The notes under the pieces are model-generated. The model saw only the letters and a program-made list of their open reading frames with translations. It was not told the origin of the DNA and searched no databases. Source: Acinetobacter phage vB_AbaM_ME3. From it: a stretch of DNA of 64,000 bases. Positions within the stretch are counted from its first letter, which is position 1; each line of letters begins with the position of its first letter. The DNA is taken from sequence record KU935715.1. One strand, 5' to 3'. The translations under genes were made by a program, and so were the position numbers. This document shows positions 4,097 through 62,229 of this stretch, in pieces.

Positions 4097-5197
4097 TTAG
4101 AGAGCATATGCTGATTGGTTTGTTAAAAAACTTTTATACATTGGTTGAATAAGGAATTTAAGTCCTTGATGAATAATTGTAATTTCACGTGTCATTGGAT
4201 TTTGACTAATTTCACTATTCATGTGAGTAATATATACATCAAATGCTTGATCACCTAATTCTTCATCAGTTGAGTATGGGTTCCATTCATTACGATGTTT
4301 ATTTAAAAACTCTAATAAACATGAAGAATTAGCTACAAAATCAGCAGGATCATATTCAGAATTAGTATTAAGATTAAACGCTCGAATATTAAATTCAATA
4401 GTGTCATTATTCAATTGAGTTTTAATATTAAGAATTTCAGTTAAACTTGCAATTGACTCTTCAGGATACTGATTCATTTCTTTAATTAATACAGATAACA
4501 TATCAATATTAAATTTAGAGAACTTTCCTACAAATTCCAATACTTCACTAGTACGTGATTGATCTTCTAAGTTATCTTTCATGTACTCTTTAAGTAGTTC
4601 AATATCTAATGATTTGAACTCAATATTAAAATAAACACGACCAGGACGATTGCTAAAGTACTCTAAATGGTGACCATATAAAGTTGTATTAGCAGTCATT
4701 AAGAATAAAGTATGTTGAGGCCATGTACCATCTAATAAGCTTAACATAGAATTACGAGGTTCAGCTTCCATGTATACTTTTTCAAATTCATCAATCACTA
4801 CAATTTTATCTTGAGTAATACTTTGAAGGAATTGATTAAATGTAGAACCAGCATAAGGTTGATCAACAATTAAGACAATTCCTTGATGAGATTCTACAAA
4901 GTTAATACAAATACGTTTAAGTAATAAGCTCTTACCACTTCCTTTTTCACCTACAAAGGCAGCAGATGTAGCTTTGTCTTGACGTTCAAAGTATGTATCT
5001 AAGATACGACCAGCCCAACGATCTGATTTTCCATATACTTTATGGTAAATAGTAAAAGGATTTGTAGGGCTTAAGAAGAATTGTTTAACTTGGTCATCCC
5101 ATTGAACAGAATAATAACCAGCTGGAATAACAGGTACAATAAACTTTGCTAGATTTTCAGCAACATAATAACCATTAGGTTTATTTAAATAAGACAT
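4097..5197 (-). CDS. P-loop NTPase (Walker A/B ATPase) of unknown family
   Basis: Walker A GEKGSGKS and a Walker B-like IVVIDEFE; 366 aa. Confidence 0.55.
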   Translation of the reverse strand: MSYLNKPNGYYVAENLAKFIVPVIPAGYYSVQWDDQVKQFFLSPTNPFTIYHKVYGKSDRWAGRILDTYFERQDKATSAAFVGEKGSGKSLLLKRICINFVESHQGIVLIVDQPYAGSTFNQFLQSITQDKIVVIDEFEKVYMEAEPRNSMLSLLDGTWPQHTLFLMTANTTLYGHHLEYFSNRPGRVYFNIEFKSLDIELLKEYMKDNLEDQSRTSEVLEFVGKFSKFNIDMLSVLIKEMNQYPEESIASLTEILNIKTQLNNDTIEFNIRAFNLNTNSEYDPADFVANSSCLLEFLNKHRNEWNPYSTDEELGDQAFDVYITHMNSEISQNPMTREITIIHQGLKFLIQPMYKSFLTNQSAYAL

Positions 5198-5697
5198 TAT
5201 AAAAGTCCTTGTCTGATTTCATTTCGAATTTGCATTAATACTTCACCAAGAAGATTACGACCATTCCATTGAGAAGGATCTGTAGCTCTTGGATCATCTT
5301 CTTCTAAACCAACGCCCCAAATCTTATCATTAGGATTACATTCAACTAAGGTTAGTTCTTTAGTTGCTAATAAGTAGTCACGATACTTAGGAATAGTATA
5401 TTTTTGACGATTAATTTCTAGCATATAGTTATAACGAACTTGTTCCCAAGATGCATCATTATAATTAGATACTTTACGACCGAGTTGCTTAGCTTGGATT
5501 GGCTGTAACTGAGTATTTTCTAAAAGCTTCATTGTAGCTTTATCATTAAAATGAAGAGCTTTAGCATACATAAAAGCATTTTCTGTATATAAAAATGTAA
5601 CACCTTTATATTCAAAACCAGCAAAAGCAAAATTACTAAATGGGCCTCTTAAAAAGAGTAAGTAATTATCTTTAATTGTACATTGAGGAATATTCAT
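5197..5697 (-). CDS. NADAR (YbiA/DUF1768) domain protein
   Basis: Matches the NADAR family pattern: FLRGPFSNFA...FEYKGVTFLYTENAFMYAKA...KIWGVGL...WNGRNLLGEVLMQIR. Confidence 0.75.
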   Translation of the reverse strand: MNIPQCTIKDNYLLFLRGPFSNFAFAGFEYKGVTFLYTENAFMYAKALHFNDKATMKLLENTQLQPIQAKQLGRKVSNYNDASWEQVRYNYMLEINRQKYTIPKYRDYLLATKELTLVECNPNDKIWGVGLEEDDPRATDPSQWNGRNLLGEVLMQIRNEIRQGLL

Positions 5698-6071
5698 TAC
5701 ATTATCCTAGGATTAATAATTTGAAGATATACAGCATTTTTATTAGGACCATTACTAAACTTAAAGTAAGAGTCAGAATTGGGTAAGAGCATTATTAAAT
5801 CATTGTAAACTTGCTTAGTGAAAATAAAAGTAATACCTTCATTTTCAATTAAGATGTTTTCAAAGTTACTGGGATCTTTACTCCCAAAAGCTAGTGCAAA
5901 AAGATCAGAATAACCAATTTGAGGAATAAAAGTAACAACTTCTAATTCAGGAGCTTTCCTATAAACTGAGAAGAAATTTTTCCACATTCGAAGTGTATTC
6001 TGATGAATATTTCCAGGATGTATTCGAATCTCAGGTACATAAAATTTATTTAACTTTGGCATGTTAAGCAT
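5697..6071 (-). CDS. KFK-family paralog (member 1 of tandem array)
   Basis: N-terminus (L)NMPKLNKFYVPEIRI shares the M-x-K-L-x-K-F-K signature of the downstream array. The true start is probably the internal ATG (MPKLNKF). Confidence 0.5.
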   Translation of the reverse strand: MLNMPKLNKFYVPEIRIHPGNIHQNTLRMWKNFFSVYRKAPELEVVTFIPQIGYSDLFALAFGSKDPSNFENILIENEGITFIFTKQVYNDLIMLLPNSDSYFKFSNGPNKNAVYLQIINPRIM

Positions 6072-6448
6072 TAACTGTTAATTCAAATGTAATCACACTT
6101 GGTTCTGATAAAAATATTAAGCCTGTAGCATTTGAAGTTAATATAAAATATGAATCAGCTCTTGATAACTTATTATTTATATTCTCACGCATAGTGGCAC
6201 TGAATCCAAATACTAACCCATTGGACTCAATAAAGAGCATATCTTGAGATGTATAATGTTCTTTATCTCTAGGTAATACTCTTACTATGTATAATCCTTG
6301 TACGAATATGTTCGATATCATATACATAGAGAAAATCAACATTATCTCTAGAATTTAAAAAAGTTCTATACGAATCTGCTGTTTCCTGAATGATATGTCC
6401 ACCTACAATATTACATGGACTTACATTAAATTTTAAAAGGGGTTTCAT
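6064..6448 (-). pseudogene. KFK-family paralog with apparent +1 frame disruption
   Basis: ATG at 6448 overlaps the stop of the upstream gene (AGATGA). It opens a 59-codon ORF, MKPLLKFNVSPCNIVGG..., ending in TAG. The 92-aa track ORF 6064..6342 continues in the +1 frame, and the fused length (~128 aa) matches the family. Confidence 0.4.
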
Positions 6449-6786
6449 CTTTCTTTAAACTCAAATCTGGAGTTTTGAGAATTATAATCCAGAACAAAAT
6501 CTAGTCCTCTAAATTTAGAAAATATTGACTGAATTACATAGAATACATTGTTATCAATATAGAAGGACTTCAGATTAGTTTTAAATATAATCTTTAATGA
6601 ATTTTCAGTTGGTATATAAACAGGTGAAACTAATACAGATTGATTTGAAAGCTGAGATATTAAAAATTTAGAAACACCAGCTTCTCTATAAAGGGCTAAA
6701 GCTGCTTTAGCTGAATCAGATATATATAGTGAGTACTGAGATAAGTCAACAAATTGATTAAGTTTATTCATGAGGTTTGCAATCAA
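6445..6786 (-). CDS. KFK-family paralog
   Basis: MIANLMNKLNQF... N-terminus; tandem array member. Confidence 0.55.
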   Translation of the reverse strand: MIANLMNKLNQFVDLSQYSLYISDSAKAALALYREAGVSKFLISQLSNQSVLVSPVYIPTENSLKIIFKTNLKSFYIDNNVFYVIQSIFSKFRGLDFVLDYNSQNSRFEFKER

Positions 6787-7111
6787 TAATTTTATAAGGT
6801 TCTTTAAAATCTATTAAAGGTAATAATCCATATCTAATGCTTTTAGGTCCAAATACATAATCTGTTTCAAATGATTTACGCATAACTTGACCATCTATAT
6901 AAATAATGCATTGATTGATTTTAAACCATACAGAATCTTTTAAATCATATTTTGAAGGAGGAACTCGATAGAATCCTAAACAATCCTCAGCGTATGTACT
7001 ATCACTAATATAGACACTTTTATAGATATCCTTTATTTTTAATAATCTACTATACATATCTAAACACATTCGTATAGAATGATTTATCTTAAACCGAGAT
7101 AAAGTGTTCAT
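6764..7111 (-). CDS. KFK-family paralog
   Basis: MNTLSRFKINHSIR...; array member, overlaps its neighbour. Confidence 0.55.
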   Translation of the reverse strand: MNTLSRFKINHSIRMCLDMYSRLLKIKDIYKSVYISDSTYAEDCLGFYRVPPSKYDLKDSVWFKINQCIIYIDGQVMRKSFETDYVFGPKSIRYGLLPLIDFKEPYKIIDCKPHE

Positions 7112-7113
7112 AA

Positions 7114-7455
7114 TTATAAGACCTCAACGTCAATATATGCTGATGATGGGTTATCAATCATACGAAATGAATAACTAGCAAAAGAGTCTCTAAGCATAAC
7201 ATGCCCAGAGATAAAGAAATCAGTTAAGTCCCCACTAATTGAAACAATTTGTTGATTACTCAATCGTATTTTTATCTCATTATATGATTCATATAAGGCA
7301 GGTTTGATTCCACCTAAATGTACCTGATCGATCCCTTTTGAATAACGAGCAATATGTAGATGACCAAATTTTCCTGTATACTTAATAAGCTCCTCTACAC
7401 AACTTGAGTGTACTTTTATAGTAGTTAATTTTTTAAATTTAAGAAGAGTTGCCAT
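7114..7455 (-). CDS. KFK-family paralog
   Basis: MATLLKFKKLTTIKV... and the central motif ISGDLTDFF. Confidence 0.6.
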   Translation of the reverse strand: MATLLKFKKLTTIKVHSSCVEELIKYTGKFGHLHIARYSKGIDQVHLGGIKPALYESYNEIKIRLSNQQIVSISGDLTDFFISGHVMLRDSFASYSFRMIDNPSSAYIDVEVL

Positions 7456-7802
7456 TAAATCACATCCACTGGTAAATACTCATTATTTATATTAAAAGGA
7501 ACAGCACAATAAGACAACAATGAACTTCCAAGTTGTTTCTCTAAACAAAAACCATTTGATAGTAAATGAGCTATATCACCACTTATATAAATAGGACAAT
7601 TAATACCTATTCTAATTGCAAAAGAGCCTTCATCAATAAACTGTTTTGGTTTTATTGTCTGCAACAGATTTGCTGAAATATGTTCACTAATTTTGCTAAT
7701 ATATAATCTCATTTGGTATTTAGAATAAATTCGTAAATCATTAAAACAATCTTGACTTAATTTTATAGTTGTTGGAAGTTTAAATTTATTCAATTTTTGC
7801 AT
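7455..7802 (-). CDS. KFK-family paralog
   Basis: MQKLNKFKLPTTIKL... and the central motif ISGDIAHLL. Confidence 0.6.
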   Translation of the reverse strand: MQKLNKFKLPTTIKLSQDCFNDLRIYSKYQMRLYISKISEHISANLLQTIKPKQFIDEGSFAIRIGINCPIYISGDIAHLLSNGFCLEKQLGSSLLSYCAVPFNINNEYLPVDVI

Positions 7803-7818
7803 ATTAATCCTTTATATA

Positions 7819-8142
7819 TTAAGTAATCACTTCATCTAATGTTTTATAAAGGATATTTGATTCTTCTTTTTTACAAAATAATCCTTCTCCAGGAATTCGA
7901 TAAATTACCTTTTGAAGATCATAGTCTTTCTCAACTAAAATAGTAAGATAACCGTCACTATATATATTCATATTATTAATAACAGATTGAGCACAATGAC
8001 GTTTATAATAAACATGAAGTCGTGATCTACGTGTAGTATCTAAAGTTAATACAATAGAATCATTAACTCCTGATAATAATTCATATAGTTCATATTCTAA
8101 TTTTAAACCTTGAAAAGACTTAAACTTTTGTAAACTATTCAT
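7819..8142 (-). CDS. KFK-family paralog
   Basis: MNSLQKFKSFQGLKL... Confidence 0.55.
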   Translation of the reverse strand: MNSLQKFKSFQGLKLEYELYELLSGVNDSIVLTLDTTRRSRLHVYYKRHCAQSVINNMNIYSDGYLTILVEKDYDLQKVIYRIPGEGLFCKKEESNILYKTLDEVIT

Positions 8143-8506
8143 ATACTTCTATAAACTCTTCTTCTCGTATATCTCTAATAATACATCCTCTACCTGGATA
8201 TTCATCATATTTACGAGACATAACTTTGCTATCATTTTGAAGTAATTTAACTATGTCACCTGACATATGTAAGGTACAATTATTTTTAAAAGGAATTTTT
8301 AAAGAATCTTCTTCACAGTAATTCCTGTTGGTTTGAGTATAAAAACTAATAGCTTCTTTAAACTCAGGAACATCTTCTCTAGACATGTATTGTATATAGA
8401 TATTTTTATAAGTTCTTGAATGTTCTAATACACTGTTATAGACATCTTTAGTAAATTTAATAGAAGGTGGTAATTTGAATTTAGATAGTTTCATATTGAT
8501 CCTCAA
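8135..8506 (-). CDS. KFK-family paralog
   Basis: ...MKLSKFKLPPSIKF... and the central motif MSGDIVKLL. Confidence 0.6.
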   Translation of the reverse strand: MRINMKLSKFKLPPSIKFTKDVYNSVLEHSRTYKNIYIQYMSREDVPEFKEAISFYTQTNRNYCEEDSLKIPFKNNCTLHMSGDIVKLLQNDSKVMSRKYDEYPGRGCIIRDIREEEFIEVYE

Positions 8507-8840
8507 GATTTATTTCAATTACTTCATCTAAGTCACTTAAGTCATCAATTGAACTAATTATATAATCACCTGTAACTCCTCTAGCCATACATGCATTAGA
8601 GTTCAATTTATCTATAATGCTTCCGCATATAACTAAAGTATTATTTTGAAAAAGTTTAATTATACCTTTTGTATCTAATTGCATTCGTTTCCGAGGTATG
8701 GAATACAAAGAAAATTCATCTCGATCAAACCAGCAAGCATACATAATATTATGAGCTTTAGAATAGTTTATAAAGGTATCATAGAGGTCTTTAGTTATTT
8801 TTATAGATTTTGTATCTATAAATTTTTGTAATTTATTCAT
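8481..8840 (-). CDS. KFK-family paralog
   Basis: MNKLQKFIDTKSIKI... and the central motif ICGSIIDKL. Confidence 0.55.
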   Translation of the reverse strand: MNKLQKFIDTKSIKITKDLYDTFINYSKAHNIMYACWFDRDEFSLYSIPRKRMQLDTKGIIKLFQNNTLVICGSIIDKLNSNACMARGVTGDYIISSIDDLSDLDEVIEINLEDQYETI

Positions 8841-9171
8841 AATATATTTCTATTAATTCATCTTGAGATACTAATTCTTTATCAATTATTTCATACACAT
8901 TTTTAGATATTCTAGATAAACATACAGACTCATTTAATTGTTGAGCAACTGTACCACATATAAATAATAAAAAGTTATTTTCAAATCTTAAACATATATC
9001 ATTTACAGCTTGATAATTTGGAAGAGCTTTACTATACAGCACAATAGTACTACTACCTTGCTGTTGTATAACTAGTACCTTCTGCATAGCAAAATTATGA
9101 GAGAGATCAAGTGCTACTCTATGTGTTATGAATACACTTTTACGAATTTTAAATTTACTCAATTGCATCAT
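8833..9171 (-). CDS. KFK-family paralog
   Basis: MMQLSKFKIRKSVFI... and the central motif ICGTVAQQL. Confidence 0.55.
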   Translation of the reverse strand: MMQLSKFKIRKSVFITHRVALDLSHNFAMQKVLVIQQQGSSTIVLYSKALPNYQAVNDICLRFENNFLLFICGTVAQQLNESVCLSRISKNVYEIIDKELVSQDELIEIYYE

Positions 9172-9475
9172 AACAGTCTATTTCTATAACTTCTTCAAAA
9201 GTACTATTAAGAAAAACATAAACCCCTGGTTCTTTTCTATATAAATATTTTCCTTCTTCTATATCTAAACTATTTAAATAGAAGCGGGTTTGATCTATAT
9301 AGAAAATTACATATCTATCTAAAGAAAATTTTTTTGGACGACGAGTTCCTAAATATAATCCTTCATCATTAGAATAAAAATAAAAATCTCTTGAATTAAA
9401 TTTAGTCAAAAATTGGTAAAAAGAATGTGTAATTAATAGGGTAGTTTTAATTTTAAAAGACTTAAGAAAAGCCAT
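9155..9475 (-). CDS. KFK-family paralog
   Basis: MAFLKSFKIKTTLLI... Confidence 0.55.
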   Translation of the reverse strand: MAFLKSFKIKTTLLITHSFYQFLTKFNSRDFYFYSNDEGLYLGTRRPKKFSLDRYVIFYIDQTRFYLNSLDIEEGKYLYRKEPGVYVFLNSTFEEVIEIDCYDAIE

Positions 9476-9785
9476 AAATTTCTATCTCCATAATTTCTTC
9501 GTCTACATTATGAAGAAATTGATAATCAGCAGCACCTAATCTATGTAAAATTTTTCCTTGAAGAATACTTTCAAAATGTTCGGGATTTAATAACATATTA
9601 GAAGTTCCAATTCTAAATCTAATATAATTTATTCTTGAAACAGGTCGAATCATTTGAAGTCGCATACCACTATCACGATTGTTAACAAAAGTTAAAGGAC
9701 TTAACTCTATATCATTTATAAATTTATATGTTGACTTCGATATACGTATTACAGAAATTGTTTTGAATTTATTAAGCTTCTTCAT
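9462..9785 (-). CDS. KFK-family paralog (start refined to internal ATG MKKLNKFK)
   Basis: The track ORF extends to 9872, but the family signature MKKLNKFKTISVIRI begins at codon 30, which avoids a long overlap with the next paralog. Confidence 0.5.
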   Translation of the reverse strand: MKKLNKFKTISVIRISKSTYKFINDIELSPLTFVNNRDSGMRLQMIRPVSRINYIRFRIGTSNMLLNPEHFESILQGKILHRLGAADYQFLHNVDEEIMEIEIYGFS

Positions 9786-10113
9786 CAATGATTTCAAAAC
9801 TCCTAAAAGGTATATCAGTTTTAATAAACTTAGATACAATTCCATCCTTAACCAAAGCAGTACCTTCTTCAATACTATTTAAATGCCTTCTTGTTATATA
9901 GCATTTAATATTATCAATATAAAAATGTACATAAGGTCCTAAATCATAATGCCTTGCTAGATACATAACCCAACGATCAGCATCCATATGATAATATGTA
10001 AGGACAATCTCAGTTTCTTCATATCCTTCAAGATGATGTTTTAGTTCAGTAATCAAACTATCTGTTATGTTAATAACTTTAGAAAAAGTTTTAAACTTAT
10101 TAAATTTTTTCAT
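9772..10113 (-). CDS. KFK-family paralog (last member of first array)
   Basis: MKKFNKFKTFSKVINI... Confidence 0.55.
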   Translation of the reverse strand: MKKFNKFKTFSKVINITDSLITELKHHLEGYEETEIVLTYYHMDADRWVMYLARHYDLGPYVHFYIDNIKCYITRRHLNSIEEGTALVKDGIVSKFIKTDIPFRSFEIIDEEA

Positions 10114-10675
10114 CTTCTATATCCTGATGATATTTTTCGATAATGTCATCTAAAGAAAATACTTTGTGTTCTACGTCAAGACCAACATCATATTGGAACT
10201 TCTTACGATCTTTATAAGTACCGTGACAATGACCAAATAAATTAATTGATCCTCGATGAGACTGATCCCAAGAACCTAATGGATAATGACTCATAGTAAT
10301 ACGAGTAGTTAAAGAATCTGAAATTTTAACATCTCTTAAACAGAAGTAATGATTTATATATTTATGAGGATTTAGTTTATAGACTTGTTGAAAAGCTTGC
10401 ATAATCATATTAGCAAATTTTTCATCATGATTACCTAAAGCGATATAAACCAAAACACCCTTATCTTTAAAATATGTAAAGAACTTAATAAACTCTTGCA
10501 ACTTAATCCTAAAATTACAAGAGATATCTCCTAATAAGTAGAGAATATCTCCTGATTTTAAATGATCAAATTTAGACATGATCCATTGATTATGCTCTTC
10601 TTCAGTACATGGACGATTACAATATTTAATGATATTTTTGTGCGACAGGTGCAAATCCGATGAGAAATGGATCAT
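10100..10675 (-). CDS. calcineurin-like metallophosphoesterase (Ser/Thr phosphatase-like)
   Basis: Motifs SDLHLSH, LLGDISCN and GNHDEKF match the phosphoesterase signature D-x-H...GD-x-x-D...GNH[DE]. Confidence 0.75.
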   Translation of the reverse strand: MIHFSSDLHLSHKNIIKYCNRPCTEEEHNQWIMSKFDHLKSGDILYLLGDISCNFRIKLQEFIKFFTYFKDKGVLVYIALGNHDEKFANMIMQAFQQVYKLNPHKYINHYFCLRDVKISDSLTTRITMSHYPLGSWDQSHRGSINLFGHCHGTYKDRKKFQYDVGLDVEHKVFSLDDIIEKYHQDIEDEKI

Positions 10676-15778: not shown

Positions 15779-16117
15779 TTAATCCTCTAGAAGATCTCTA
15801 AAAATTTGTTCTCTTGTTCGTCCTGTCGTTAAATTAGGAACACGTCCATATTCAGAAAAATCAGAAGGTATTACCCTTGAATTCCTAAGTCTTGTACGAC
15901 TTTCTTCTCGGACATAATACTCATTAAATAGACGAGCATCAGTAGGAGGTAGACAACTAACAGAGCCTATTTCAGTCATAGTTGCCAGTAGTTCTTGAAT
16001 TTCTTTTGCCCATAAAGGATCATCTCTAACAATTTTCTTAAATTTAAGAAATGTTCCTTTTTTCTTCGATGGAGGATAGAAAAAAGGAAACCCTATAGTT
16101 GTAATATCATCCATCAT
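15779..16117 (-). CDS. hypothetical protein (112 aa)
   Basis: ORF track. Confidence 0.5.
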   Translation of the reverse strand: MMDDITTIGFPFFYPPSKKKGTFLKFKKIVRDDPLWAKEIQELLATMTEIGSVSCLPPTDARLFNEYYVREESRTRLRNSRVIPSDFSEYGRVPNLTTGRTREQIFRDLLED

Positions 16118-16517
16118 TTAGATAAGTCTCCAAGCAAGGATTAATACCTTCAGTAGTACCTGTAATTAACGTAGGTTGTCTTATAGGATAAGATGCTGAA
16201 GTTAATGTAAACATTGGAGGACTATAAGCTGTATTTAATTCAGCTCTTTGTGGTCTATACCTATCAGATAACATATATCCATAAAGTTGATCAAGTAAAA
16301 GATCATTTATTAATTTGGAAGTTTCATTCCAAGAACCTTCATACACACCATCTAGCCAACATTTAGAATCTTCTTCTATTAAAGGATTAGTATGAACAGT
16401 AGTCTTAAATTTATTAAGTTTTTGACCTTTATCTTTTTGTTCTTCAGGCTTGGTATATTTATAATATTTAATTTGAATAGGAGTTTCTAGTCTCCAATTT
16501 GAATAATCTCTTCTCAT
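16107..16517 (-). CDS. hypothetical protein (136 aa; contains internal KLNKFK signature)
   Basis: ORF track. The KFK-family signature QKLNKFKTTVHTN sits at codon 33, so the start may be misplaced. Confidence 0.45.
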   Translation of the reverse strand: MRRDYSNWRLETPIQIKYYKYTKPEEQKDKGQKLNKFKTTVHTNPLIEEDSKCWLDGVYEGSWNETSKLINDLLLDQLYGYMLSDRYRPQRAELNTAYSPPMFTLTSASYPIRQPTLITGTTEGINPCLETYLNDG

Positions 16518-21201: not shown

Positions 21202-22046
21202 ACATTACTCTCTATATAAGACTGAAGTTGTTGAGAAATGTTGTCAAATTCATCATCATTTGTATAAAAGAATGGATTAGTATGATGACCAACTTGATAC
21301 CAACCTTCAGCTTCTTTTACTTTACGAATAACACCTAAAGAGCGACCTTCCTTGTCTTCCATTTCCCAACCAAAACGTTCTTCATATAATGCAATACCAC
21401 AAGGAGAAACGTAAACTAATGGTTTTCGAACAATTTTACAAACGGAATAGACATAGATTAAATCAATATCAGGTTCATTATAAAGATAGTCAGCTTGGGA
21501 TTTTTGATTTCCAATATAACTTCCCCACTTTTCCCAACGCCAGCCACCACTTGGAGGTTGATGTTCTTTAAAAATAGGAGTTAAGAAAATACAATATTCA
21601 TCATCTTGTTGTTCAAGCCATTTATACATTCGATAAACTTGATCTTCATTATCACAAACACCATAACCTTTAAAATAATATTGATCTGTATAGGTCTTTT
21701 GAAGCTTTTGTAATTCAGCTCTAGAAAGATCTTTAACAGCATCCCAATGTTTTAAATGAAATTCAGTCTGACGGAAACCTAGCGCTTTACGAAACTTACG
21801 ATTTCGTTGATCAATTGGTTTACTTAATTTAATACGAGTTAAATGAGTTTCAATTTCGTATGAAGGGGGAGTACAAATATGTGGGTTTAAACTACCACAG
21901 ATCATGATACCTTTATATTTTGTTGCATAGAATCTTTCTCCATTTTGATAATCAATATACTTATGCATTGATTCTTCTGGAAAAGCTTCTTTAGCTTTTA
22001 GAGCATATACAGGATGATAGTGTTCAGAAGTAACATTACTTAACAT
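21189..22046 (-). CDS. hypothetical protein (285 aa)
   Basis: ORF track. Confidence 0.55.
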   Translation of the reverse strand: MLSNVTSEHYHPVYALKAKEAFPEESMHKYIDYQNGERFYATKYKGIMICGSLNPHICTPPSYEIETHLTRIKLSKPIDQRNRKFRKALGFRQTEFHLKHWDAVKDLSRAELQKLQKTYTDQYYFKGYGVCDNEDQVYRMYKWLEQQDDEYCIFLTPIFKEHQPPSGGWRWEKWGSYIGNQKSQADYLYNEPDIDLIYVYSVCKIVRKPLVYVSPCGIALYEERFGWEMEDKEGRSLGVIRKVKEAEGWYQVGHHTNPFFYTNDDEFDNISQQLQSYIESNVWTT

Positions 22047-22419
22047 TTTCAGATATCCAAGTTTGAATAGCAGATGGAGAAGTTAAATTTACAACAACAT
22101 TTAACTCATATTTATTATTAGAAATTTCATAAATAACTAAACGAGAAGCTTCTGATAAAATTGAATCAGGTAACAATGATGTAAAATTATCATGAACAGA
22201 AGCCATAAGAGTAAAACCAGGTCGAGATGGAGCTGTGTCTTTCCAACTATTACTATACAAATGTAGATCAACTGTACTTAATCTATTCCTTCTATTAAAT
22301 CCACTCCCAAATCTCCAAGTTTCAAAAAGACTACTATAAAAGGCTACAACGTATCTTTTATCTCCTTTCACAACTTCTGAAAACTTCATTAAAGGTTTAA
22401 GAATATTCATCGTAGACAA
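22036..22419 (-). CDS. SVHxN-family paralog (second tandem array)
   Basis: Central motif ASVHDNFTSLL; ~125 aa. Confidence 0.55.
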   Translation of the reverse strand: MSTMNILKPLMKFSEVVKGDKRYVVAFYSSLFETWRFGSGFNRRNRLSTVDLHLYSNSWKDTAPSRPGFTLMASVHDNFTSLLPDSILSEASRLVIYEISNNKYELNVVVNLTSPSAIQTWISENVK

Positions 22420-22769
22420 ATTCCTAGAGTCTTTTCTAGAGATTCTATTGTTGGTTGATGAATATCATATATAAGTTTTAATTCATCTTTAGAAATGAAA
22501 GTCTTTTCTGTATCAAAAAATGAATATACTTTAAAAGATGTAATAGCGGATGCAGGAACTTGCATAATATTTAAAATTGCAGCACCTTTTAACTTATCTA
22601 AGCTATCAATTGGATAAGCATGTCCAGAGACATTTTCAATCCTGATAATCCTAGAAGGTAACTCTGAAATTCCACTATTTAAATATACTTCATGTAGAAT
22701 TCCAGCGTTCGAAACCATTACAGAACAGATATACTGTTGAGGGTTAGAAAATCTGCTTAATCGTCGCAT
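22407..22769 (-). CDS. paralog of second array
   Basis: N-terminus MRRLSRFSNPQQY resembles the KFK signature; ~120 aa. Confidence 0.5.
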   Translation of the reverse strand: MRRLSRFSNPQQYICSVMVSNAGILHEVYLNSGISELPSRIIRIENVSGHAYPIDSLDKLKGAAILNIMQVPASAITSFKVYSFFDTEKTFISKDELKLIYDIHQPTIESLEKTLGICLR

Positions 22770-23149
22770 TCAATCTCCAAGGCTTCAAATAAAGATTTAA
22801 TAGTTGGATTAGTAAGCCTATGAAGAAGTGACAATTCATTTTTTGCATACACTTTATTCTCATAAGGAGGTAAAGCATATATTTTAATTAGATAAACACT
22901 TCTTCTTGGGTCTGAAAGTATTTGTAAAAGATTAGATTGTTTTAATACATTAGGATCTGTAATAACAAAAGCTAATTGAAGATAAACAGGCATATCACTT
23001 GTTACTGAATGATTAATTGTAACTCGACGTACAGGATTTTCAGTTAAAGAGTGATATAAAAATACTTCATTAGAATCAACTAAAGATTGAATAGAGATAA
23101 CATATTCCACATGAGATTTAAATTTCTTTAAATATTTTGTCTGATCCAT
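22757..23149 (-). CDS. paralog of second array
   Basis: N-terminus MDQTKYLKKFKSHVEY. Confidence 0.5.
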   Translation of the reverse strand: MDQTKYLKKFKSHVEYVISIQSLVDSNEVFLYHSLTENPVRRVTINHSVTSDMPVYLQLAFVITDPNVLKQSNLLQILSDPRRSVYLIKIYALPPYENKVYAKNELSLLHRLTNPTIKSLFEALEIECDD

Positions 23150-23496
23150 TCTTCTATCTCTTCTTGGGATTTCAGATTTGCAATAAGAGAAGGGTATTCA
23201 TAATACTCTTCAAAACCATAGATTTGAATTGATGTTGATCTTTCAATAAGAGACTTACTAAGTAAAGCTATAAAATTTGTATGAACTGAAGTTGTTAAAT
23301 TTGCAGAGCAAATGTTCTCATGAAACTCAGGAAACATTCTACGAACATTAATACAAGCAATTCGATTCTTGGAATTAATTGCGGATGCATAAATCCAGTC
23401 CGAATCCAAACTATCTTCATAGAGTTTGGATTTAAAAAGAGCAAAAAACTTAGAAGGAAATCTTACAGAAGGCTTAAATATAGATAATATTCTCAT
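23128..23496 (-). CDS. SVHxN-family paralog
   Basis: Motifs RMFPEFHENICSANLTTSVHTNFIALL and EEIEEWI are shared with the gene at 27194..27583. Confidence 0.55.
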   Translation of the reverse strand: MRILSIFKPSVRFPSKFFALFKSKLYEDSLDSDWIYASAINSKNRIACINVRRMFPEFHENICSANLTTSVHTNFIALLSKSLIERSTSIQIYGFEEYYEYPSLIANLKSQEEIEEWIRQNI

Positions 23497-23627
23497 ATAT
23501 AGCCTAGGTGTTTTAAAAACATATATGTAATAACAAAACCTAAACCAACAGCAGATAGATTAGTCTTAGGTTTTTCTACAAATAAACTAATTAAAATAAA
23601 AAGAGAACCTAAAACTAAAAAGGGCAT
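23493..23627 (-). CDS. possible small membrane protein (44 aa), not in ORF track
   Basis: ATG at 23627 overlaps the upstream stop (TAGTATG) and carries a GGAAAT Shine-Dalgarno-like sequence. Translation: MPFLVLGSLFILISLFVEKPKTNLSAVGLGFVITYMFLKHLGYI. Its TGA overlaps the next ATG. Confidence 0.35.
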   Translation of the reverse strand: MPFLVLGSLFILISLFVEKPKTNLSAVGLGFVITYMFLKHLGYI

Positions 23628-23628
23628 A

Positions 23629-24708
23629 CTATTTCCTTAATTCGTTAGGAACAATTCTTTTAAATCGCCAATGGTTACTTCCATCAGCAATATGATTTGC
23701 TCTAACTAATTTACAAAGTTTATTTCGAAATTCAGAATAATGAAAAGATTTAGTTGTACGAACTACTATACCTTCATGTCCTGCTTTAACAACTTGTTTA
23801 AATAAATCATTAATTACAACTTCATCGTATGGTCCTCGATATATTTCTTGAACCATTGTCATACCTAACAATTCAAACCATTCTTTTGTATCATCCCAAG
23901 ATAGACATATGTCCTTATCCCACACTTGGAATCCGTACAAATATGAATCTAAATCTTGATAATGAATTGCATGTTTAGCATATAAATTCTCTGCATAGTA
24001 ACGCATACCTTCAGGAATATTATAAGCAATATGTTGATAATGGAAGTTCTTTGCCCAAGCACGAGATTCATGATCTAAAGAATCGATAGAACGAGCATGA
24101 CAATAATCGGGGTATCCCGCAAAGTTCTCTCCATCCATTTTAATAGTTATTACAATTTCATCAGATACTAAATGATGTGATATATTGTAATTAGTTTTAT
24201 CATCTTCAGTTTTATGAGCACTTAAAGGATGATGATACGAACGAGGATACTTGTAATAATGAGTAAATTCATCTAGTACTCCGCCATCAGATAAAACTTT
24301 CTGAACTGATTCATCATAGAATAATGGACCAGGCATTCTCTTACCATTAAGAAGAATGATGTTACCCCATTTATCATATTGATGATCAGGGTACATATAT
24401 TCAGGAAGAACAACTTTTTGAGCTCCTACCTTCTCTCTTACTTCATCACAACTAATAACTGTTTGTTCGCACTTTAAATGACAAGAATCACAGACGGTAC
24501 CAGCGTTTTCGATATGATAGCCAAAACAATCCGAAAATAAACGTCTTTCGACAATGTGATGCACAGATAATTTCTCTGTACTACCACAGAAGATACACTT
24601 GTGGTTGTCTCTTATTAAACCTTGTTCTCTAAATTCATCTCTAGATAAAGGTTTCCCATCTGTTCCATGACAACCACAAATTGTTGAGTGAGGTTTACTA
24701 GATTTCAT
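23629..24708 (-). CDS. Rnl2-like ATP-dependent RNA ligase with N-terminal Cys/His (HNH-like) zinc-finger domain
   Basis: Nucleotidyltransferase motif I IKMDGEN (KxDGxN, as in T4 Rnl2 KIHGTN). Motif IV/V HEGIVVRTTK...FRNKLCK. The N-terminal 80 aa is rich in C/H pairs (CGCHG...CIFCG...HHIVERR...CDSCH). Confidence 0.55.
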   Translation of the reverse strand: MKSSKPHSTICGCHGTDGKPLSRDEFREQGLIRDNHKCIFCGSTEKLSVHHIVERRLFSDCFGYHIENAGTVCDSCHLKCEQTVISCDEVREKVGAQKVVLPEYMYPDHQYDKWGNIILLNGKRMPGPLFYDESVQKVLSDGGVLDEFTHYYKYPRSYHHPLSAHKTEDDKTNYNISHHLVSDEIVITIKMDGENFAGYPDYCHARSIDSLDHESRAWAKNFHYQHIAYNIPEGMRYYAENLYAKHAIHYQDLDSYLYGFQVWDKDICLSWDDTKEWFELLGMTMVQEIYRGPYDEVVINDLFKQVVKAGHEGIVVRTTKSFHYSEFRNKLCKLVRANHIADGSNHWRFKRIVPNELRK

Positions 24709-25091
24709 ATTGGATTACCTTTTATTACTTTAATAATATCCCATCTAGAGACACCTTGATCAAATATAGTAACTTTAAAAGAAGAGAAGTTAACAGAGTT
24801 ATTATCATCGACTTCATATTCACATATTGCAATCTGATTGACACTACTAAAGTATGGTGAAAAATCATCAACAATTGTTTCTAATGAGGATGTTAATGTT
24901 ATTGAACCAGTATGATTAAAATTATGTTTTTCTATTTGAACCCTATTAGTTCTGAAATATTTTAAGCCTTGACATGACTTTAATGCCATACCATGCCAAT
25001 TTTCAAAGTAATCAGGAACAAATGAATTTAAACGATAGAAAAGTCCATAGTACTTTTGAGTACATAATTTATATTTTTCTAAGTATTTCAT
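24705..25091 (-). CDS. hypothetical protein (128 aa)
   Basis: ORF track. Confidence 0.5.
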   Translation of the reverse strand: MKYLEKYKLCTQKYYGLFYRLNSFVPDYFENWHGMALKSCQGLKYFRTNRVQIEKHNFNHTGSITLTSSLETIVDDFSPYFSSVNQIAICEYEVDDNNSVNFSSFKVTIFDQGVSRWDIIKVIKGNPI

Positions 25092-25106
25092 TTTGTTCCT
25101 GTCTAA

Positions 25107-25325
25107 TTAAATTTCTGTAGAATCTAATTGAAGAACAATAGTTTTAATGATAGATTCTTCGTCTACCATACGAAAAACAAGATGCTTAGTTACAACTAAT
25201 TCTTCAATTTGTTTTTCAGTTAAATTATAAAAATAATTTAGTTTAGAAGTTAATTCTTCCCGACCATTTGCAATTAGAGGTAGGTTATCTCCAACTTGGA
25301 CAGATACTAAATATAAAGTAGCCAT
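25107..25325 (-). CDS. hypothetical protein (72 aa)
   Basis: ORF track. Confidence 0.45.
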   Translation of the reverse strand: MATLYLVSVQVGDNLPLIANGREELTSKLNYFYNLTEKQIEELVVTKHLVFRMVDEESIIKTIVLQLDSTEI

Positions 25326-25334
25326 AATTATTCC

Positions 25335-25748
25335 TTAAATAATTAATTTAAAATGCTCTGGATTACTATCCAAATTTAAAGTTTCACTACGACCATAACA
25401 AGCTAGCCCATTAGTGAATCCAGCACTTAACTTTTTACGAAAATTTTCATCTACATACTGGACGGCATCAAACATAAAATCATGGTTAATACTTTTACTA
25501 AATAGTACTATTTCCTGAACACCATTTTCATTTTCCATACAAATATATTTCAATTCATCACGGAACATTGGTTTGTAGTCTTCAATAACTTCAAGAATTT
25601 TACGTTCTGGTCTAATCCAAATCCCACGAGTTCCATGTTTAATATATTGAAGATTCTCTCTAAAAGCTTGAAGACCAATAGATGAAGAAACAATAAAAAC
25701 TTCTTCTTGTTCAGTGTGGAGATTTAAAGTTTTAATCTTGATCATCAA
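25335..25748 (-). CDS. hypothetical protein (137 aa)
   Basis: ORF track. Confidence 0.5.
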   Translation of the reverse strand: MMIKIKTLNLHTEQEEVFIVSSSIGLQAFRENLQYIKHGTRGIWIRPERKILEVIEDYKPMFRDELKYICMENENGVQEIVLFSKSINHDFMFDAVQYVDENFRKKLSAGFTNGLACYGRSETLNLDSNPEHFKLII

Positions 25749-26070
25749 AAGTTATCTCTTGTTCAATAGATAATAATTTAGCTTTAATTGCTTTCGTTGC
25801 CTCTTCTAAGAAGAAACCACGTTCATCGTCTTCAAAGTAACCATCACCTTTTGTATTAGCAGAATATATAGTTTCTCCACCACAATCAGGATAATCAACA
25901 CGAAAGTGACCATGACGAAGTCTTAAATAACCAACTTGAATACCATTGGAAAAGACTTCATATTGTTCAGGACAAGCTGTACATGTTTGTACAAATGTAA
26001 ACTCAGTCATATTATTTCTTCTTAAAAAAGAAACGAGTAATGAGTCCACCAATAATAGTTTTGACAACAA
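25732..26070 (-). CDS. hypothetical protein (112 aa)
   Basis: ORF track. Cys pairs CTACPE...DCGGE may be a Zn site. Confidence 0.45.
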   Translation of the reverse strand: MLSKLLLVDSLLVSFLRRNNMTEFTFVQTCTACPEQYEVFSNGIQVGYLRLRHGHFRVDYPDCGGETIYSANTKGDGYFEDDERGFFLEEATKAIKAKLLSIEQEITFDDQD

Positions 26071-26115
26071 ATAAAGTGACTGTTTTAAATATAGACCACA
26101 TATAAATTCCTAAAA

Positions 26116-26457
26116 TTATTGAAGAGATTGATAATATTCATTTACCTCTTGTCTGGTTTTTAAATGAATAATAGGTGTTAAAGTTTTATCTGAATGGTAG
26201 TAACAGATAACAGCTTGTTGAGCAAAGCGTTGAACTCCTTTAGACATTAAATCTTTTAAATTTTCATGAATAGAAGCTGAATGATTTATAGGAGAATATT
26301 TTTTAGCTACATCACATTTTTGTGAAATAATACTAGATCCTACCCTATTCGCTGCATTGTATCCTAAAGCATATTGCCAACGAGATTCTGTTAATTCTGT
26401 AAAAAGTACAACATATCTAGGAATAAATTGCGTTTTAAAATTAGATAATTTTTCCAT
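26116..26457 (-). CDS. SVHxN-family paralog (third array)
   Basis: MEKLSNFKTQFIPRYVVLF... and the motif SASIHENLKDLM. Confidence 0.55.
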   Translation of the reverse strand: MEKLSNFKTQFIPRYVVLFTELTESRWQYALGYNAANRVGSSIISQKCDVAKKYSPINHSASIHENLKDLMSKGVQRFAQQAVICYYHSDKTLTPIIHLKTRQEVNEYYQSLQ

Positions 26458-26461
26458 ATTA

Positions 26462-26827
26462 TTAAGAACCTAGAGATTGTTTAAACTCTCGAATTTGCTC
26501 TTTAGTTTCAAGTTTTTTATATTCGTGAAGATTATAAATATCATCAACTTTAGTTACAGAACAAATAATGATTTCTTGAGAAACTAACATTATATTCGAA
26601 CTTAATAAGTTATTAAGATTCTTATGTAAAGAACCTCGATTATTAATAACTTTATAAGTTTGCATTACTTGATCTTCAGGATCAATATAACATCGTCCTG
26701 TAGAATGTGATGCATTAAACCCTAAGCCTACTTGCCAACGAGGATATCTTTCTTCTCTAAAGAGTACAACATATTCTCCAGTATCAATTTGATTTAAACT
26801 TTTTGTAAAACTATTTAACTTTTTCAT
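26462..26827 (-). CDS. SVHxN-family paralog
   Basis: MKKLNSFTKSL...YVVLFRE... and the motif RGSLHKNLNNLL. Confidence 0.55.
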   Translation of the reverse strand: MKKLNSFTKSLNQIDTGEYVVLFREERYPRWQVGLGFNASHSTGRCYIDPEDQVMQTYKVINNRGSLHKNLNNLLSSNIMLVSQEIIICSVTKVDDIYNLHEYKKLETKEQIREFKQSLGS

Positions 26828-62144: not shown

Positions 62145-62229
62145 ATAAATATGTCCTATATAAAGTAGTAATAAATAAAAGTAAATTAAAGGAGTCTTTC
62201 CATATTGTAAGAATAACAAAAAATTGTCA

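What the first reader, a model, noticed from the sequence alone, without database searches (positions are those of the whole stretch)
5697..10113. Tandem array of about 13 paralogous 110-135-aa genes with N-terminal M-x-K-L-x-K-F-K signature and central SGDIxxLL motif
Thirteen consecutive, mostly overlapping ORFs (4.4 kb) encode small proteins. They share an N-terminus such as MQKLNKFKLPTTIKL, MATLLKFKKLTTIKV or MKKFNKFKTFSKV, and a mid-protein motif I/M-S/C-G-D/S-I-x-x-L-L. Many junctions are stop/start overlaps (ATGA). An expanded, rapidly diverging family in a lytic phage is typical of host-interaction or anti-defence gene sets. The family is not one I can name. At least one member (6064..6448) appears frame-disrupted.
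Basis: seen in the sequence. Interest (0 to 1): 0.7.

Follow-up and report, generated by a model that had tools for sequence, protein, structure and literature searches.

The report
Small-protein gene array in jumbo phage
Acinetobacter jumbo phage ME3 carries 13 back-to-back genes for small, fast-evolving proteins of no known family that share an 8-residue N-terminal tag, a tag also found on at least a dozen unrelated small proteins elsewhere in the phage and therefore likely to be a common docking or sorting signal.

Summary
The array is real. It lies on the minus strand of Acinetobacter phage vB_AbaM_ME3 and holds 13 adjacent genes of 106-127 aa between a metallophosphoesterase gene and a NADAR gene.

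- **One family or several:** by sequence, nine members form one family and m01+m02 form a second. m03 and m07 link to the others only through the N-terminus. AlphaFold models of m06 and m01 have the same order of strands and helices.
- **Motifs:** all 13 start with M-x-K-L-x-K-F-K. The SGDIxxLL motif is complete in three members and partial in three.
- **Frame-disrupted copy:** it differs from intact 127-aa orthologues by one extra base, at 6301.
- **Relatives:** found only in metagenome contigs. They keep the array at the same locus with 4 to 17 copies.
- **Evolution:** orthologues are 67% identical against 90% for neighbouring genes. dN/dS is 0.21-0.69, so selection is purifying but relaxed. 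There are no recent duplicates.
- **Known families:** no Pfam or PHROG match, and only 23 representatives among 1.84 billion proteins. The nearest fold is IscA/HesB, weakly, without the cysteines.
- **Main new lead:** the N-terminal peptide is constrained at the amino-acid level, modelled as unstructured, and also heads at least two other ME3 paralogue families.

Function is untested. My best guess is a set of specialised binding proteins that share one docking or sorting peptide.

The parts
9772..10113 (-). m13, 113 aa (MKKFNKFKTF...). First gene of the array. Its start overlaps the stop of the phosphoesterase gene by 14 nt.
   Evidence: It belongs to the main family cluster. Orthologues are L001_01 (66% identity) and L008_01 (41%). 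dN/dS is 0.26.
9462..9785 (-). m12, 107 aa, counted from the ATG at 9785 (MKKLNKFKTI...). The mechanical ORF runs on to a TTG at 9872.
   Evidence: Orthologues are 107-110 aa and start at the motif. BLASTP against m11 gives E 1e-10. dN/dS is 0.21.
9155..9475 (-). m11, 106 aa (MAFLKSFKIK...).
   Evidence: It belongs to the main family. It is 50% identical to L001_03, with dN/dS 0.60.
8833..9171 (-). m10, 112 aa (MMQLSKFKIR...). The central motif reads FICGTVAQQL.
   Evidence: E 1e-6 against both m08 and m09. dN/dS is 0.31.
8481..8840 (-). m09, 119 aa (MNKLQKFIDT...). The central motif reads VICGSIIDKL.
   Evidence: dN/dS is 0.28.
8135..8494 (-). m08, 119 aa, counted from the ATG at 8494 (MKLSKFKLPP...). 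The central motif reads HMSGDIVKLL.
   Evidence: E 1.5e-12 against m06. The orthologue L001_06 is 119 aa and 71% identical. dN/dS is 0.26.
7819..8142 (-). m07, 107 aa (MNSLQKFKSF...). A divergent member that links to the main family only over its first 48 residues.
   Evidence: hhalign gives 94% probability, falling to 3.5% after the N-terminal 12 residues are removed. Held-out HMM score is 15 bits, against a top decoy score of 17. Orthologues are 68% and 51% identical. dN/dS is 0.44.
7455..7802 (-). m06, 115 aa (MQKLNKFKLP...; annotated gp239). The central motif reads IYISGDIAHLL. This is the member used for the structure model.
   Evidence: One search gives the gp239 name. The AlphaFold2 model has pLDDT 87.4 and pTM 0.80, with the order b-a-b-b-b-b-a-b-b-b and a low-confidence stretch at residues 1-10. 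dN/dS is 0.40.
7114..7455 (-). m05, 113 aa (MATLLKFKKL...). The central motif reads VSISGDLTDFF.
   Evidence: E 2e-9 against m06. dN/dS is 0.35.
6764..7111 (-). m04, 115 aa (MNTLSRFKIN...; annotated gp241).
   Evidence: (E 3e-7 against m08). dN/dS is 0.33.
6445..6771 (-). m03, 108 aa, counted from the ATG at 6771 (MNKLNQFVDL...). A divergent member.
   Evidence: Orthologues are 108-109 aa. hhalign to the main family gives only 40% probability, and none once the N-terminus is removed. dN/dS is 0.23.
6064..6448 (-). m02, a frame-disrupted copy split into ORFs 6269-6448 and 6064-6342. Only the second part is annotated, as gp243 (87 aa). Intact orthologues are 127 aa.
   Evidence: It belongs with m01 in a second sequence group (hhalign 97%, E 6e-11).
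6301..6301 (-). The single extra base that breaks m02: an A in the gene's orientation, a T on the + strand. It does not lie in a homopolymer.
   Evidence: DNA alignment to L003 and L001. Coordinate. ME3 was sequenced by 454 (PMC5000817), so a sequencing error cannot be told apart from a real mutation.
5697..6062 (-). m01, 121 aa, counted from the ATG at 6062 (MPKLNKFYVP...). It is annotated as gp244 with a start three codons upstream. Last gene of the array; its stop overlaps the NADAR start by 1 nt.
   Evidence: The AlphaFold2 model has pLDDT 86.1 and pTM 0.79, with the same order of secondary-structure elements as m06 and residues 1-8 below pLDDT 50. dN/dS is 0.69.
10100..10675 (-). Upstream boundary gene: a calcineurin-like metallophosphoesterase. 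It is conserved (94.7% identical in L001).
5197..5697 (-). Downstream boundary gene: a NADAR-domain protein. It is conserved (90% identical in L001) but absent from L011.

Best explanation
**What it is.** The array is a lineage-specific multigene family of soluble proteins of 12.5-14.5 kDa. Each protein has two parts:
1. A nearly invariant N-terminal peptide, M-x-K-L-x-K-F-K, which mixes basic and hydrophobic residues and is predicted not to pack against the domain.
2. A fast-evolving beta-alpha-beta domain of about 100 residues. Its topology is weakly IscA/HesB-like, but it lacks the iron-sulfur cysteines.

**How it arose.** The genes came from old single-gene and block tandem duplications. 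They sit in one co-directional, mostly overlapping run, which probably means they are translationally coupled. The run lies among accessory enzyme genes: thioredoxin, phosphoesterase, NADAR, Nudix and a DUF2828 (Ro-like) protein. Related phages gain, lose and inactivate copies, giving 4 to 17 at the same site.

**Most likely mechanism (inferred).** Each paralogue is a specialised binding protein, for example an inhibitor or modulator of a different host factor or defence protein. The variable domain supplies target specificity. The shared N-terminal peptide docks all of them, together with at least two other ME3 small-protein families, onto one common partner or destination.

**Shown here:** gene reality, family structure, turnover, the selection regime, the amino-acid-level constraint on the peptide, and its presence on other families.

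**Inferred:** the binding function, the common partner, and early expression.
For: **The genes are real and under selection**
- The coding strand has 12 stop-free runs of at least 100 codons in DNA of 27% GC, against 0.04 in shuffles.
- dN/dS is 0.21-0.69 for all 12 intact genes compared with L001.
- L001 keeps all 13 orthologues in order, and L008 keeps 11 of them in order.

**Turnover at one locus**
- ME3 has 13 copies, L001 has 15, L008 has 17, L011 has 4 plus a decayed copy, and L006 has at least 8.
- L008 carries an old three-gene block duplication, with 42-47% identity between the copies.

**Faster evolution than neighbours**
- Median orthologue identity is 67% against 89.6% in L001, and 42.6% against 81.5% in L008.

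**Protein properties**
- No hydrophobic segment suggests a membrane span (maximum 19-residue hydropathy 1.31 or less). pI ranges from 4.9 to 9.6.

**Fold**
- Two confident AlphaFold2 models (pLDDT 87 and 86) have the same order of secondary-structure elements.

**The N-terminal peptide**
- It is the lowest-entropy segment of the family, at 1.36 bits against 2.2-3.3 elsewhere. L4 occurs in 32/36 sequences, K6 in 30/36, F7 in 34/36 and K8 in 29/35.
- Leu4 uses all six codons at about the frequencies seen in the gene bodies, so the constraint acts on the peptide and not on the DNA or RNA.
- Its pLDDT is below 60 (m06) and below 50 (m01).
- Seven non-array genes score at least 8 bits at their N-terminus, against 0.42 expected. 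Only 4 of 14,237 internal positions reach that score.
- Families F2 (phrog_17379) and F3 align to the array family only over their first 11-21 residues.

**Context**
- Pfam assigns NADAR, Nudix, Metallophos, Thioredoxin and DUF2828 to the flanking genes.
- Phage NADAR-type enzymes neutralise the DarTG1 defence system (PMC11825919).
Against: - There is no experimental or homology-based functional evidence of any kind.
- Gene-wide dN/dS is below 1, and site-level positive selection could not be tested.
- No recent duplicates exist, so there is no sign of an ongoing arms-race amplification.
- The IscA-like fold match is below the usual significance levels.
- m03 and m07 are not shown to share the fold.
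- The peptide might instead be a structural element, such as a strand exchanged in an oligomer, that a monomer model cannot show.
- Two genes (15779-16117 and 16107-16517) carry the motif 20-35 residues from the N-terminus, so a strictly N-terminal signal is not required.
- Expression timing is unknown.
Confidence: 0.45

Rival explanations
1. These are capsid-packaged 'internal' or ejection proteins. The shared N-terminal peptide would be a capsid-targeting sequence that loads a diverse, fast-evolving set of small proteins into the prohead for injection with the DNA, like the T-even phage internal proteins.
For: - The hallmark holds: a conserved short N-terminal peptide sits on small proteins that are otherwise diverse. 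It appears on at least 5 sequence groups and about 27 genes in this window.
- The locus is hypervariable between relatives.
- Giant phages package large sets of ejection proteins (PMC5694885 abstract).
Against: - No conserved cleavage motif follows the peptide, and there is no conserved Glu as in the T4 L/I-x-E site. That comparison rests on my recollection of T4; the alignment itself is.
- Two motif-bearing genes carry the motif internally.
- The array sits among enzyme genes of early type, not head genes.
- No virion proteome exists for ME3, and the isolate is lost (PMC8878043).
- About 27 different cargo proteins would be unusually many.
Confidence: 0.15
2. The members are subunits of one hetero-oligomeric or filamentous assembly. 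The basic N-terminal peptide of one subunit would pair with the acidic C-terminal strand (E-E-h-I-E-I) of another, so the array would encode a single multi-subunit structure and not independent binders.
For: - Most members have a basic N-terminus (net charge +2 to +4 over the first 10 residues) and an acidic C-terminus (net -2 to -5 over the last 12).
- Overlapping, probably translationally coupled genes suit balanced expression.
- IscA-type folds are known to oligomerise (from my own knowledge).
Against: - Copy number varies from 4 to 17 between close relatives, and copies decay (m02 in ME3; L011 5695-5944). That fits poorly with a fixed-stoichiometry complex.
- The peptide also occurs on unrelated families elsewhere in the genome.
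- m01, m03 and m07 lack a markedly acidic C-terminus (net -1 to +1 over the last 12 residues), and so does m02 in its repaired form (-1).
Confidence: 0.1
3. They are A-type iron-sulfur or metal carrier proteins (IscA/SufA/HesB) that supply phage or host Fe-S enzymes.
Against: - No member matches Pfam Fe-S_biosyn, even at E up to 10.
- No cysteine column is conserved, and m01, m03 and m12 contain no cysteine at all.
- Thirteen divergent copies make no sense for a housekeeping carrier.
Confidence: 0.03
4. The array is non-functional: chance ORFs in AT-rich DNA, or decaying duplicates without a role.
For: One copy is frame-disrupted in ME3 and another in L011. There are no database homologues outside this lineage.
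Against: - AT-rich DNA is rich in stop codons (0.0885 per codon), so a run of 105 open codons has probability 6e-5. Twelve such runs are seen on one strand and none on the other.
- dN/dS is below 1 for all 12 intact genes.
- Orthologues keep their order across three phage lineages.
- The structure predictions are confident.
Confidence: 0.02

Closest known systems
T-even phage internal proteins (IPI, IPII, IPIII and the polymorphic ip locus) with their capsid-targeting sequence
   Same: Both are sets of small, diverse, fast-evolving proteins in a locus that varies between related phages. In both, the proteins are united mainly by a conserved N-terminal peptide of about 8-10 residues (PMC3012670).
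   Different: There is no sequence relationship. No protease cleavage motif is evident after the peptide. Packaging is untested. Most ME3 array members also share a domain fold, whereas T4 internal proteins are unrelated to each other beyond the targeting sequence. Two ME3 genes carry the motif internally.
A-type Fe-S carriers IscA/SufA/HesB (Pfam PF01521)
   Same: This is the nearest fold to the m06 model in three searches. Both have a beta-alpha-beta-beta-beta-beta-alpha-beta-beta type order, with two 'strand then helix' motifs.
Tandem amplification of counter-defence genes ('genomic accordions'): T4 dmd-tifA amplification, poxvirus K3L
   Same: Both involve tandem multiplication of a small accessory gene and copy-number differences between close relatives. 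This array also sits next to a NADAR gene, a family with phage counter-defence members (doi 10.1101/2022.04.14.488369; PMC11825919).
   Different: Those amplifications are recent and near-identical, and they act through gene dosage. Here paralogues are at most 42% identical, no DNA repeat remains, and each copy has its own conserved orthologue. This is an old array maintained by birth-and-death evolution with sub-specialised copies.
phrog_17379, a second ME3 paralogue family (window 22036-27583 and 62723-63139)
   Same: It occurs in the same phage, with the same protein size range, tandem or clustered arrangement, N-terminal L-x-K/x-F motif, and unknown function.
   Different: No similarity to the array family is detectable beyond the first 11 or so residues (hhalign 14% probability). 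No array member matches this PHROG.
Paralogous ejection or inner-body protein families of giant phages (phiKZ, SPN3US)
   Same: These are jumbo myoviruses with lineage-specific paralogue families thought to be delivered into the host (PMC5694885 and PMC7411985 abstracts; further detail from my own knowledge).
   Different: Those proteins are larger, are proven virion components, and are processed by the prohead protease. None of that is known for the ME3 array.

Membership tests
IscA/SufA/HesB A-type Fe-S carriers (PF01521) | A sequence match to the Pfam Fe-S_biosyn profile | tested here: not met
   No member matches at E up to 0.1. None of 45 family sequences matches at E up to 10.
IscA/SufA/HesB A-type Fe-S carriers (PF01521) | Three conserved cysteine ligands for the Fe-S cluster | tested here: not met
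   No conserved Cys column appears in the 36-sequence alignment. m01, m03 and m12 have no cysteine.
IscA/SufA/HesB A-type Fe-S carriers (PF01521) | A HesB-like fold | tested here: inconclusive
T4-type internal proteins with a capsid-targeting sequence | A short conserved N-terminal peptide shared by small proteins that are otherwise dissimilar | tested here: met
   PSSM enrichment is 19 observed against 0.42 expected at 8 bits or more. Families F2 and F3 align to the array only over their N-terminal 11-21 residues.
T4-type internal proteins with a capsid-targeting sequence | A prohead-protease cleavage site directly after the peptide (L/I-x-E in T4, recalled from memory) | tested here: not met
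   Positions 9-12 are the most variable stretch of the protein (entropy 2.8-3.4 bits) and hold no conserved Glu. The specificity of ME3's own protease is unknown.
T4-type internal proteins with a capsid-targeting sequence | Presence in the virion and ejection into the host | not testable with these tools
   No proteome is available, and the ME3 isolate is reported lost (PMC8878043).
Tandem paralogue array with birth-and-death turnover | At least three adjacent, same-strand genes with significant mutual similarity | tested here: met
   Nine members fall in one BLAST cluster, and m01 and m02 form a second group.
Tandem paralogue array with birth-and-death turnover | Gain, loss and pseudogenisation of copies between related genomes at the same locus | tested here: met
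   Copy numbers are 13, 15, 17, 4 and at least 8. There are disrupted copies in ME3 and L011 and a block duplication in L008.
Active gene amplification ('accordion') | Near-identical recent copies and DNA-level tandem repeats | tested here: not met
   The highest paralogue identity within ME3 is 42%. TRF and the repeat finder detect no unit-length repeats.
phrog_17379 and other PHROG families | A profile match | tested here: not met
   No array member has a PHROG hit below E 0.005, and none matches phrog_17379.
Polymorphic-toxin immunity proteins (Pfam Imm/SUKH families) | A profile match to an immunity family | tested here: not met
   Only one of 45 sequences gives a non-significant Imm64 hit (E 0.051).

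The most novel reading that the evidence does not exclude
The L-x-K-F-K peptide may be a previously unrecognised sorting or docking signal of the ME3 phage lineage. It would mark a repertoire of about 27 or more small, fast-evolving effector proteins, drawn from at least five sequence groups and making up about a fifth of the genes in this 64-kb window. The destination could be the capsid interior, for co-injection as with T4 internal proteins, or one hub protein of the host or phage. On this reading the 13-gene array is the largest cassette of that effector arsenal.
Probability: 0.2. Interest if true: 0.8.

Novelty: new variant of a known kind. Interest (0 to 1): 0.55.

Why it matters
Jumbo phages are full of unnamed small genes. 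Here about a fifth of the genes in a 64-kb stretch can be grouped by one 8-residue peptide that is constrained at the amino-acid level, which turns 'hypothetical proteins' into a testable class. Finding what the peptide binds, or whether it directs packaging, would assign a common logic to dozens of orphan genes at once. It could also yield a tag for delivering cargo in Acinetobacter phages.

The array is also a clean natural example of long-term birth-and-death evolution of accessory genes in a phage. It shows 4-17 copies, each with its own orthologue, evolving two to three times faster than neighbouring genes. It sits next to a NADAR gene, whose family includes phage counter-defence enzymes, and Acinetobacter baumannii is a priority target for phage therapy.

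The work also shows that ME3, described as a genomic orphan, has several relatives in public metagenome assemblies.

Tried and rejected
**Database searches that found nothing useful**
- Megablast of the array and tblastn of m06, m08 and an F2 member against 50,697 deposited phage genomes gave no match. ME3's own record is evidently not in that collection.
- Pfam and PHROG scans of members found nothing significant.
- A profile search against PDB sequences gave only 7y7n_A at E 0.61. That weak alignment places 'LSLSGDCIIGL' against the ISGD motif and is not significant.
- The phosphoesterase protein found no relatives in IMG/VR.
- An exact-pattern scan of IMG/VR for MKK[LF]NKFK gave 20 single, unrelated hits. 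None scored against the family HMM (best E 0.21), so they are chance matches.
- A third large protein search, using a 45-sequence profile, found only the same lineage.

- The afdb50 fold library was not installed.
The m01 and m06 models could therefore be compared only by their order of secondary-structure elements.

**Ideas rejected**
- *The N-terminal motif is an RNA- or DNA-level signal, such as an AU-rich initiation region or recombination microhomology.* Rejected because Leu4 uses all six codons at gene-body frequencies.
- *Programmed frameshift in m02.* A T_TTT_TTA heptamer lies upstream, but the second ORF needs a +1 shift downstream of it, and the relatives have a simple intact ORF.
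- *Internal promoters or terminators divide the array.* Promoter-like sites are fewer than in shuffles, and terminator-like sites are at the chance level.
- *Signal peptide or membrane protein.* No hydrophobic segment is present.

Full report
**Source and observation**

The window comes from Acinetobacter phage vB_AbaM_ME3, a 234.9-kb jumbo myovirus. Two array proteins are identical to its gp239 and gp241, and two more to gp243 and gp244. All genes of the finding lie on the minus strand. From 10113 down to 5697 there are 13 adjacent genes, which I call m13 to m01, between a calcineurin-like phosphoesterase gene (10100-10675) and a NADAR gene (5197-5697).

They are not chance ORFs. The region is 27% GC, and a stop codon is expected every 11 or so codons, so a run of 105 open codons has probability 6e-5. 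Even so, the coding strand has 12 stop-free runs of at least 100 codons, against 0.04 in shuffles and none on the other strand.

Using the start codons that orthologues support, the proteins are 106-127 aa. The 123-136-aa values come from mechanical ORFs that extend upstream.

Ten of 14 junctions overlap, mostly by 8, 14 or 17 nt, and only one is ATGA. About half the starts lack a recognisable Shine-Dalgarno sequence, so I infer translational coupling.

**Is it one family?**

BLASTP within ME3 links m04, m05, m06, m08, m09 and m10 at E 1e-6 to 1e-12, and m11 to m12 at 1e-10. With relatives added, nine members (m04-m06 and m08-m13) fall into a single BLAST cluster of 36 sequences.

m01 and m02 form a second group (hhalign 97%, E 6e-11). 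m07 reaches the main family at 94% probability, but only over its first 48 residues, and m03 reaches 40%. After the first 12 residues are removed, none of m01, m02, m03 or m07 shows any link to the main family. In held-out HMM tests they score no better than the best of about 3,100 decoys.

For the other four, shared ancestry rests on position, size, the N-terminal motif and predicted structure.

AlphaFold2 gives confident models for m06 (pLDDT 87.4, pTM 0.80) and for m01 (86.1, 0.79; modelled from its own subgroup's alignment). Both have the same order of elements: strand, helix, four strands, helix, then two or three strands.

The central S-G-D-I-x-x-L-L motif marks the fifth strand and second helix. 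It is complete only in m05, m06 and m08.

**The broken copy**

m02 is split into two ORFs by one extra base at window 6301. Relatives L003 (otherwise 100% identical) and L001 lack that base and encode an intact 127-aa protein.

ME3 was sequenced by 454. The site is not a homopolymer, so error and mutation cannot be told apart. A programmed frameshift is unnecessary and does not fit the geometry.

**Relatives and evolution**

The family is extremely narrow:
- A full HMM scan of 1.84 billion representative proteins finds 23, all 91-121 aa.
- Three word-indexed searches of 5.8 billion proteins find only the same lineage.
- Deposited phage genomes and IMG/VR contribute nothing.

The hits sit on metagenome contigs that are syntenic with ME3 over about 20 kb. 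In each, the array occupies the same slot after the phosphoesterase gene:

| Locus | Copies |
|---|---|
| ME3 | 13 |
| L001 | 15 |
| L008/L009/L010 | 17 |
| L006 | at least 8 (the contig ends) |
| L011 | 4, plus a decayed copy |

Orthologues keep their order. L001 has two extra genes exactly where ME3 has its only sizeable intergenic gap. L008 has an old three-gene block duplication, with 42-47% identity between copies. Within ME3 no two members exceed 42% identity, and no DNA-level repeat remains. The duplications are therefore ancient and the copies individually maintained.

Array orthologues are far more diverged than neighbouring genes. Medians are 67% against 89.6% for L001, and 42.6% against 81.5% for L008. 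Nei-Gojobori dN/dS is 0.21-0.69 for the array. It is 0.04-0.18 for four conserved flanking genes, and 0.32 and 0.40 for two others. This is relaxed purifying selection. Diversifying selection is not shown, and site models could not be run on three lineages.

**What the proteins look like**

They are soluble, with no hydrophobic span. They weigh 12.5-14.5 kDa, have pI 4.9-9.6, and usually have a basic N-terminus and an acidic C-terminus.

No Pfam, PHROG or PDB sequence match exists.

The agreement across methods suggests a similar topology, but every score is sub-threshold. The defining cysteines are absent, and three members have no cysteine at all. I therefore do not file the family under IscA/HesB.

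**The N-terminal peptide is the most informative feature**

- Across 36 main-family sequences, residues 1-8 have mean entropy 1.36 bits, against 2.2-3.3 everywhere else. L4 occurs in 32/36, K6 in 30/36, F7 in 34/36 and K8 in 29/35.
- Both structure models leave this stretch at low confidence, ahead of the first strand.
- Leu4 is encoded by all six leucine codons at roughly gene-body frequencies. The constraint is therefore on the peptide, not on the DNA or mRNA.
- The motif is not confined to the array. A matrix trained only on non-ME3 arrays finds seven further minus-strand genes in the window at 8 bits or more at their N-termini, where 0.42 are expected. Only 4 of 14,237 internal positions score that high.

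The extra genes belong to other paralogue sets:
- F2 (phrog_17379) has seven genes, at 22036-27583 and 62723-63139.
- F3 has three genes, at 22407, 22757 and 27567.
- Two are singletons, at 24705 and 58145.
- F2 and F3 align to the array family only over their first 11-21 residues.

Two more fast-evolving genes (15779-16117 and 16107-16517) carry the motif 20-35 residues in, and it is conserved in three orthologues each. In total about 27 of roughly 117 minus-strand ORFs of at least 60 aa in this window carry it.

**Interpretation**

*Shown:*
- The gene family is real and under selection.
- It turns over by birth and death at a fixed locus.
- It combines a fast-evolving domain with an invariant peptide that is probably flexible and is shared with other families.

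*Inferred:* the variable domains are specialised binders of host or defence factors, and the peptide docks them to a common partner or destination. Three things support this:
- the pattern of constraint, with an invariant peptide on a variable domain;
- the accessory nature and turnover of the locus;
- the context beside NADAR, Nudix, the DUF2828 (Ro-like) gene and, in L011, Hen1 and Pnkp RNA-repair genes. Phage NADAR-type enzymes are documented counters to DarTG1 (PMC11825919).

[quoted passage not shown] I rate that specific reading, packaging and injection, at about 0.15. No cleavage motif follows the peptide, two genes carry it internally, and no virion proteome exists.

*Other rivals:* a hetero-oligomer built by N-terminus-to-C-terminus pairing (0.1), a genuine Fe-S carrier role (0.03) and non-function (0.02).

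**Prior knowledge and novelty**

The genome announcement does not mention the array. [quoted passage not shown] ME3 is described there and in PMC8878043 as a genomic orphan whose isolate is lost.

The following appear to be new:
- the family definition and its subgroups;
- its turnover in newly found relatives;
- the predicted fold;
- the shared peptide, which is the most important of these.

The general kind, a lineage-specific array of accessory paralogues in a large phage, is known. I therefore rate this a new variant of a known kind, with moderate interest (0.55). It would rise to about 0.8 if the peptide proves to be a sorting signal.

Noticed in passing
window 22036-22410, 23128-23496, 26116-26457, 26462-26827, 26811-27215, 27194-27583, 62723-63139 (all minus strand): A second paralogue family of seven small proteins (113-138 aa). 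Six of them match phrog_17379, of unknown function, at E 1e-48 to 1e-6. They begin with the same L-x-K/x-F motif and share a mid-protein S-h-H-x-N/D-h-x-x-L-h motif. They show no detectable homology to the array beyond the N-terminus.
   Followed up: partly
window 22407-22769, 22757-23149, 27567-27953; also 24705-25091 and 58145-58471 (minus strand): A third small family (mutual BLASTP E 7e-9 to 7e-3), interleaved with the phrog_17379 genes, plus two singletons. All start with the same motif (MRRLSRFS, ..YLKKFKS, MMAKLNKFSK, MKYLEKYK, MTKYLKKFKI). None has a Pfam or PHROG match.
   Followed up: partly
window 15779-16117 and 16107-16517 (minus strand): Two adjacent fast-evolving genes (30-38% identity to L008, against an 81% neighbourhood median) carry the motif internally, as ..GTFLKFKKIVRDDPLW.. 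and ..GQKLNKFKTTVHTNP... The motif is conserved in the L001, L008 and L006 orthologues. It is therefore not strictly N-terminal.
   Followed up: partly
L011 5127-12524: In this more distant ME3-like contig the array has shrunk to 4 genes plus a decayed copy (5695-5944), and NADAR is missing. The DUF2828 (Ro-like) gene is replaced by a Hen1 plus Pnkp RNA-repair pair. The neighbourhood thus swaps RNA-repair and ADP-ribose modules.
   Followed up: partly
L008 10970-13457: An old block duplication lies inside the 17-gene array. Genes 05/06/07 resemble genes 08/10/11 at 42-47% identity, which shows that the array also grows by multi-gene segments.
   Followed up: partly
whole window (composition): [quoted passage not shown] Either the published figure is wrong or this 64-kb region is atypical.
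   Followed up: no
window 29718-33269 (minus strand): A 1183-aa protein has no PHROG match and no tblastn match in 50,697 phage genomes. The 798-aa (53553-55949) and 507-aa (60747-62270) proteins also have no PHROG match.
   Followed up: no
window 23629-24708 (minus strand): An RNA ligase (phrog_24030, E 1e-192) has weak HNH-endonuclease profile hits at its N-terminal residues 25-91. It sits between the interleaved small-gene families.
   Followed up: no
window 36028-38055 (minus strand): A phrog_1735 protein is 47% identical to proteins of Klebsiella, Proteus and Salmonella Vi1-like (Ackermannviridae-type) phages. Those proteins are variously annotated as hypothetical, DNA-directed RNA polymerase or SAP-domain protein. 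It is one of the few ME3 genes with clear relatives among cultured phages.
   Followed up: no
L001, L006, L008-L012 (Logan/JGI metagenome contigs): ME3 is described in the literature as a genomic orphan whose isolate is lost. Several ME3-like phages, 43-100% identical at the protein level and syntenic over 20 kb, exist in public metagenome assemblies (runs SRR27674915, SRR34434921, SRR28003059, SRR29668569 and others).
   Followed up: partly
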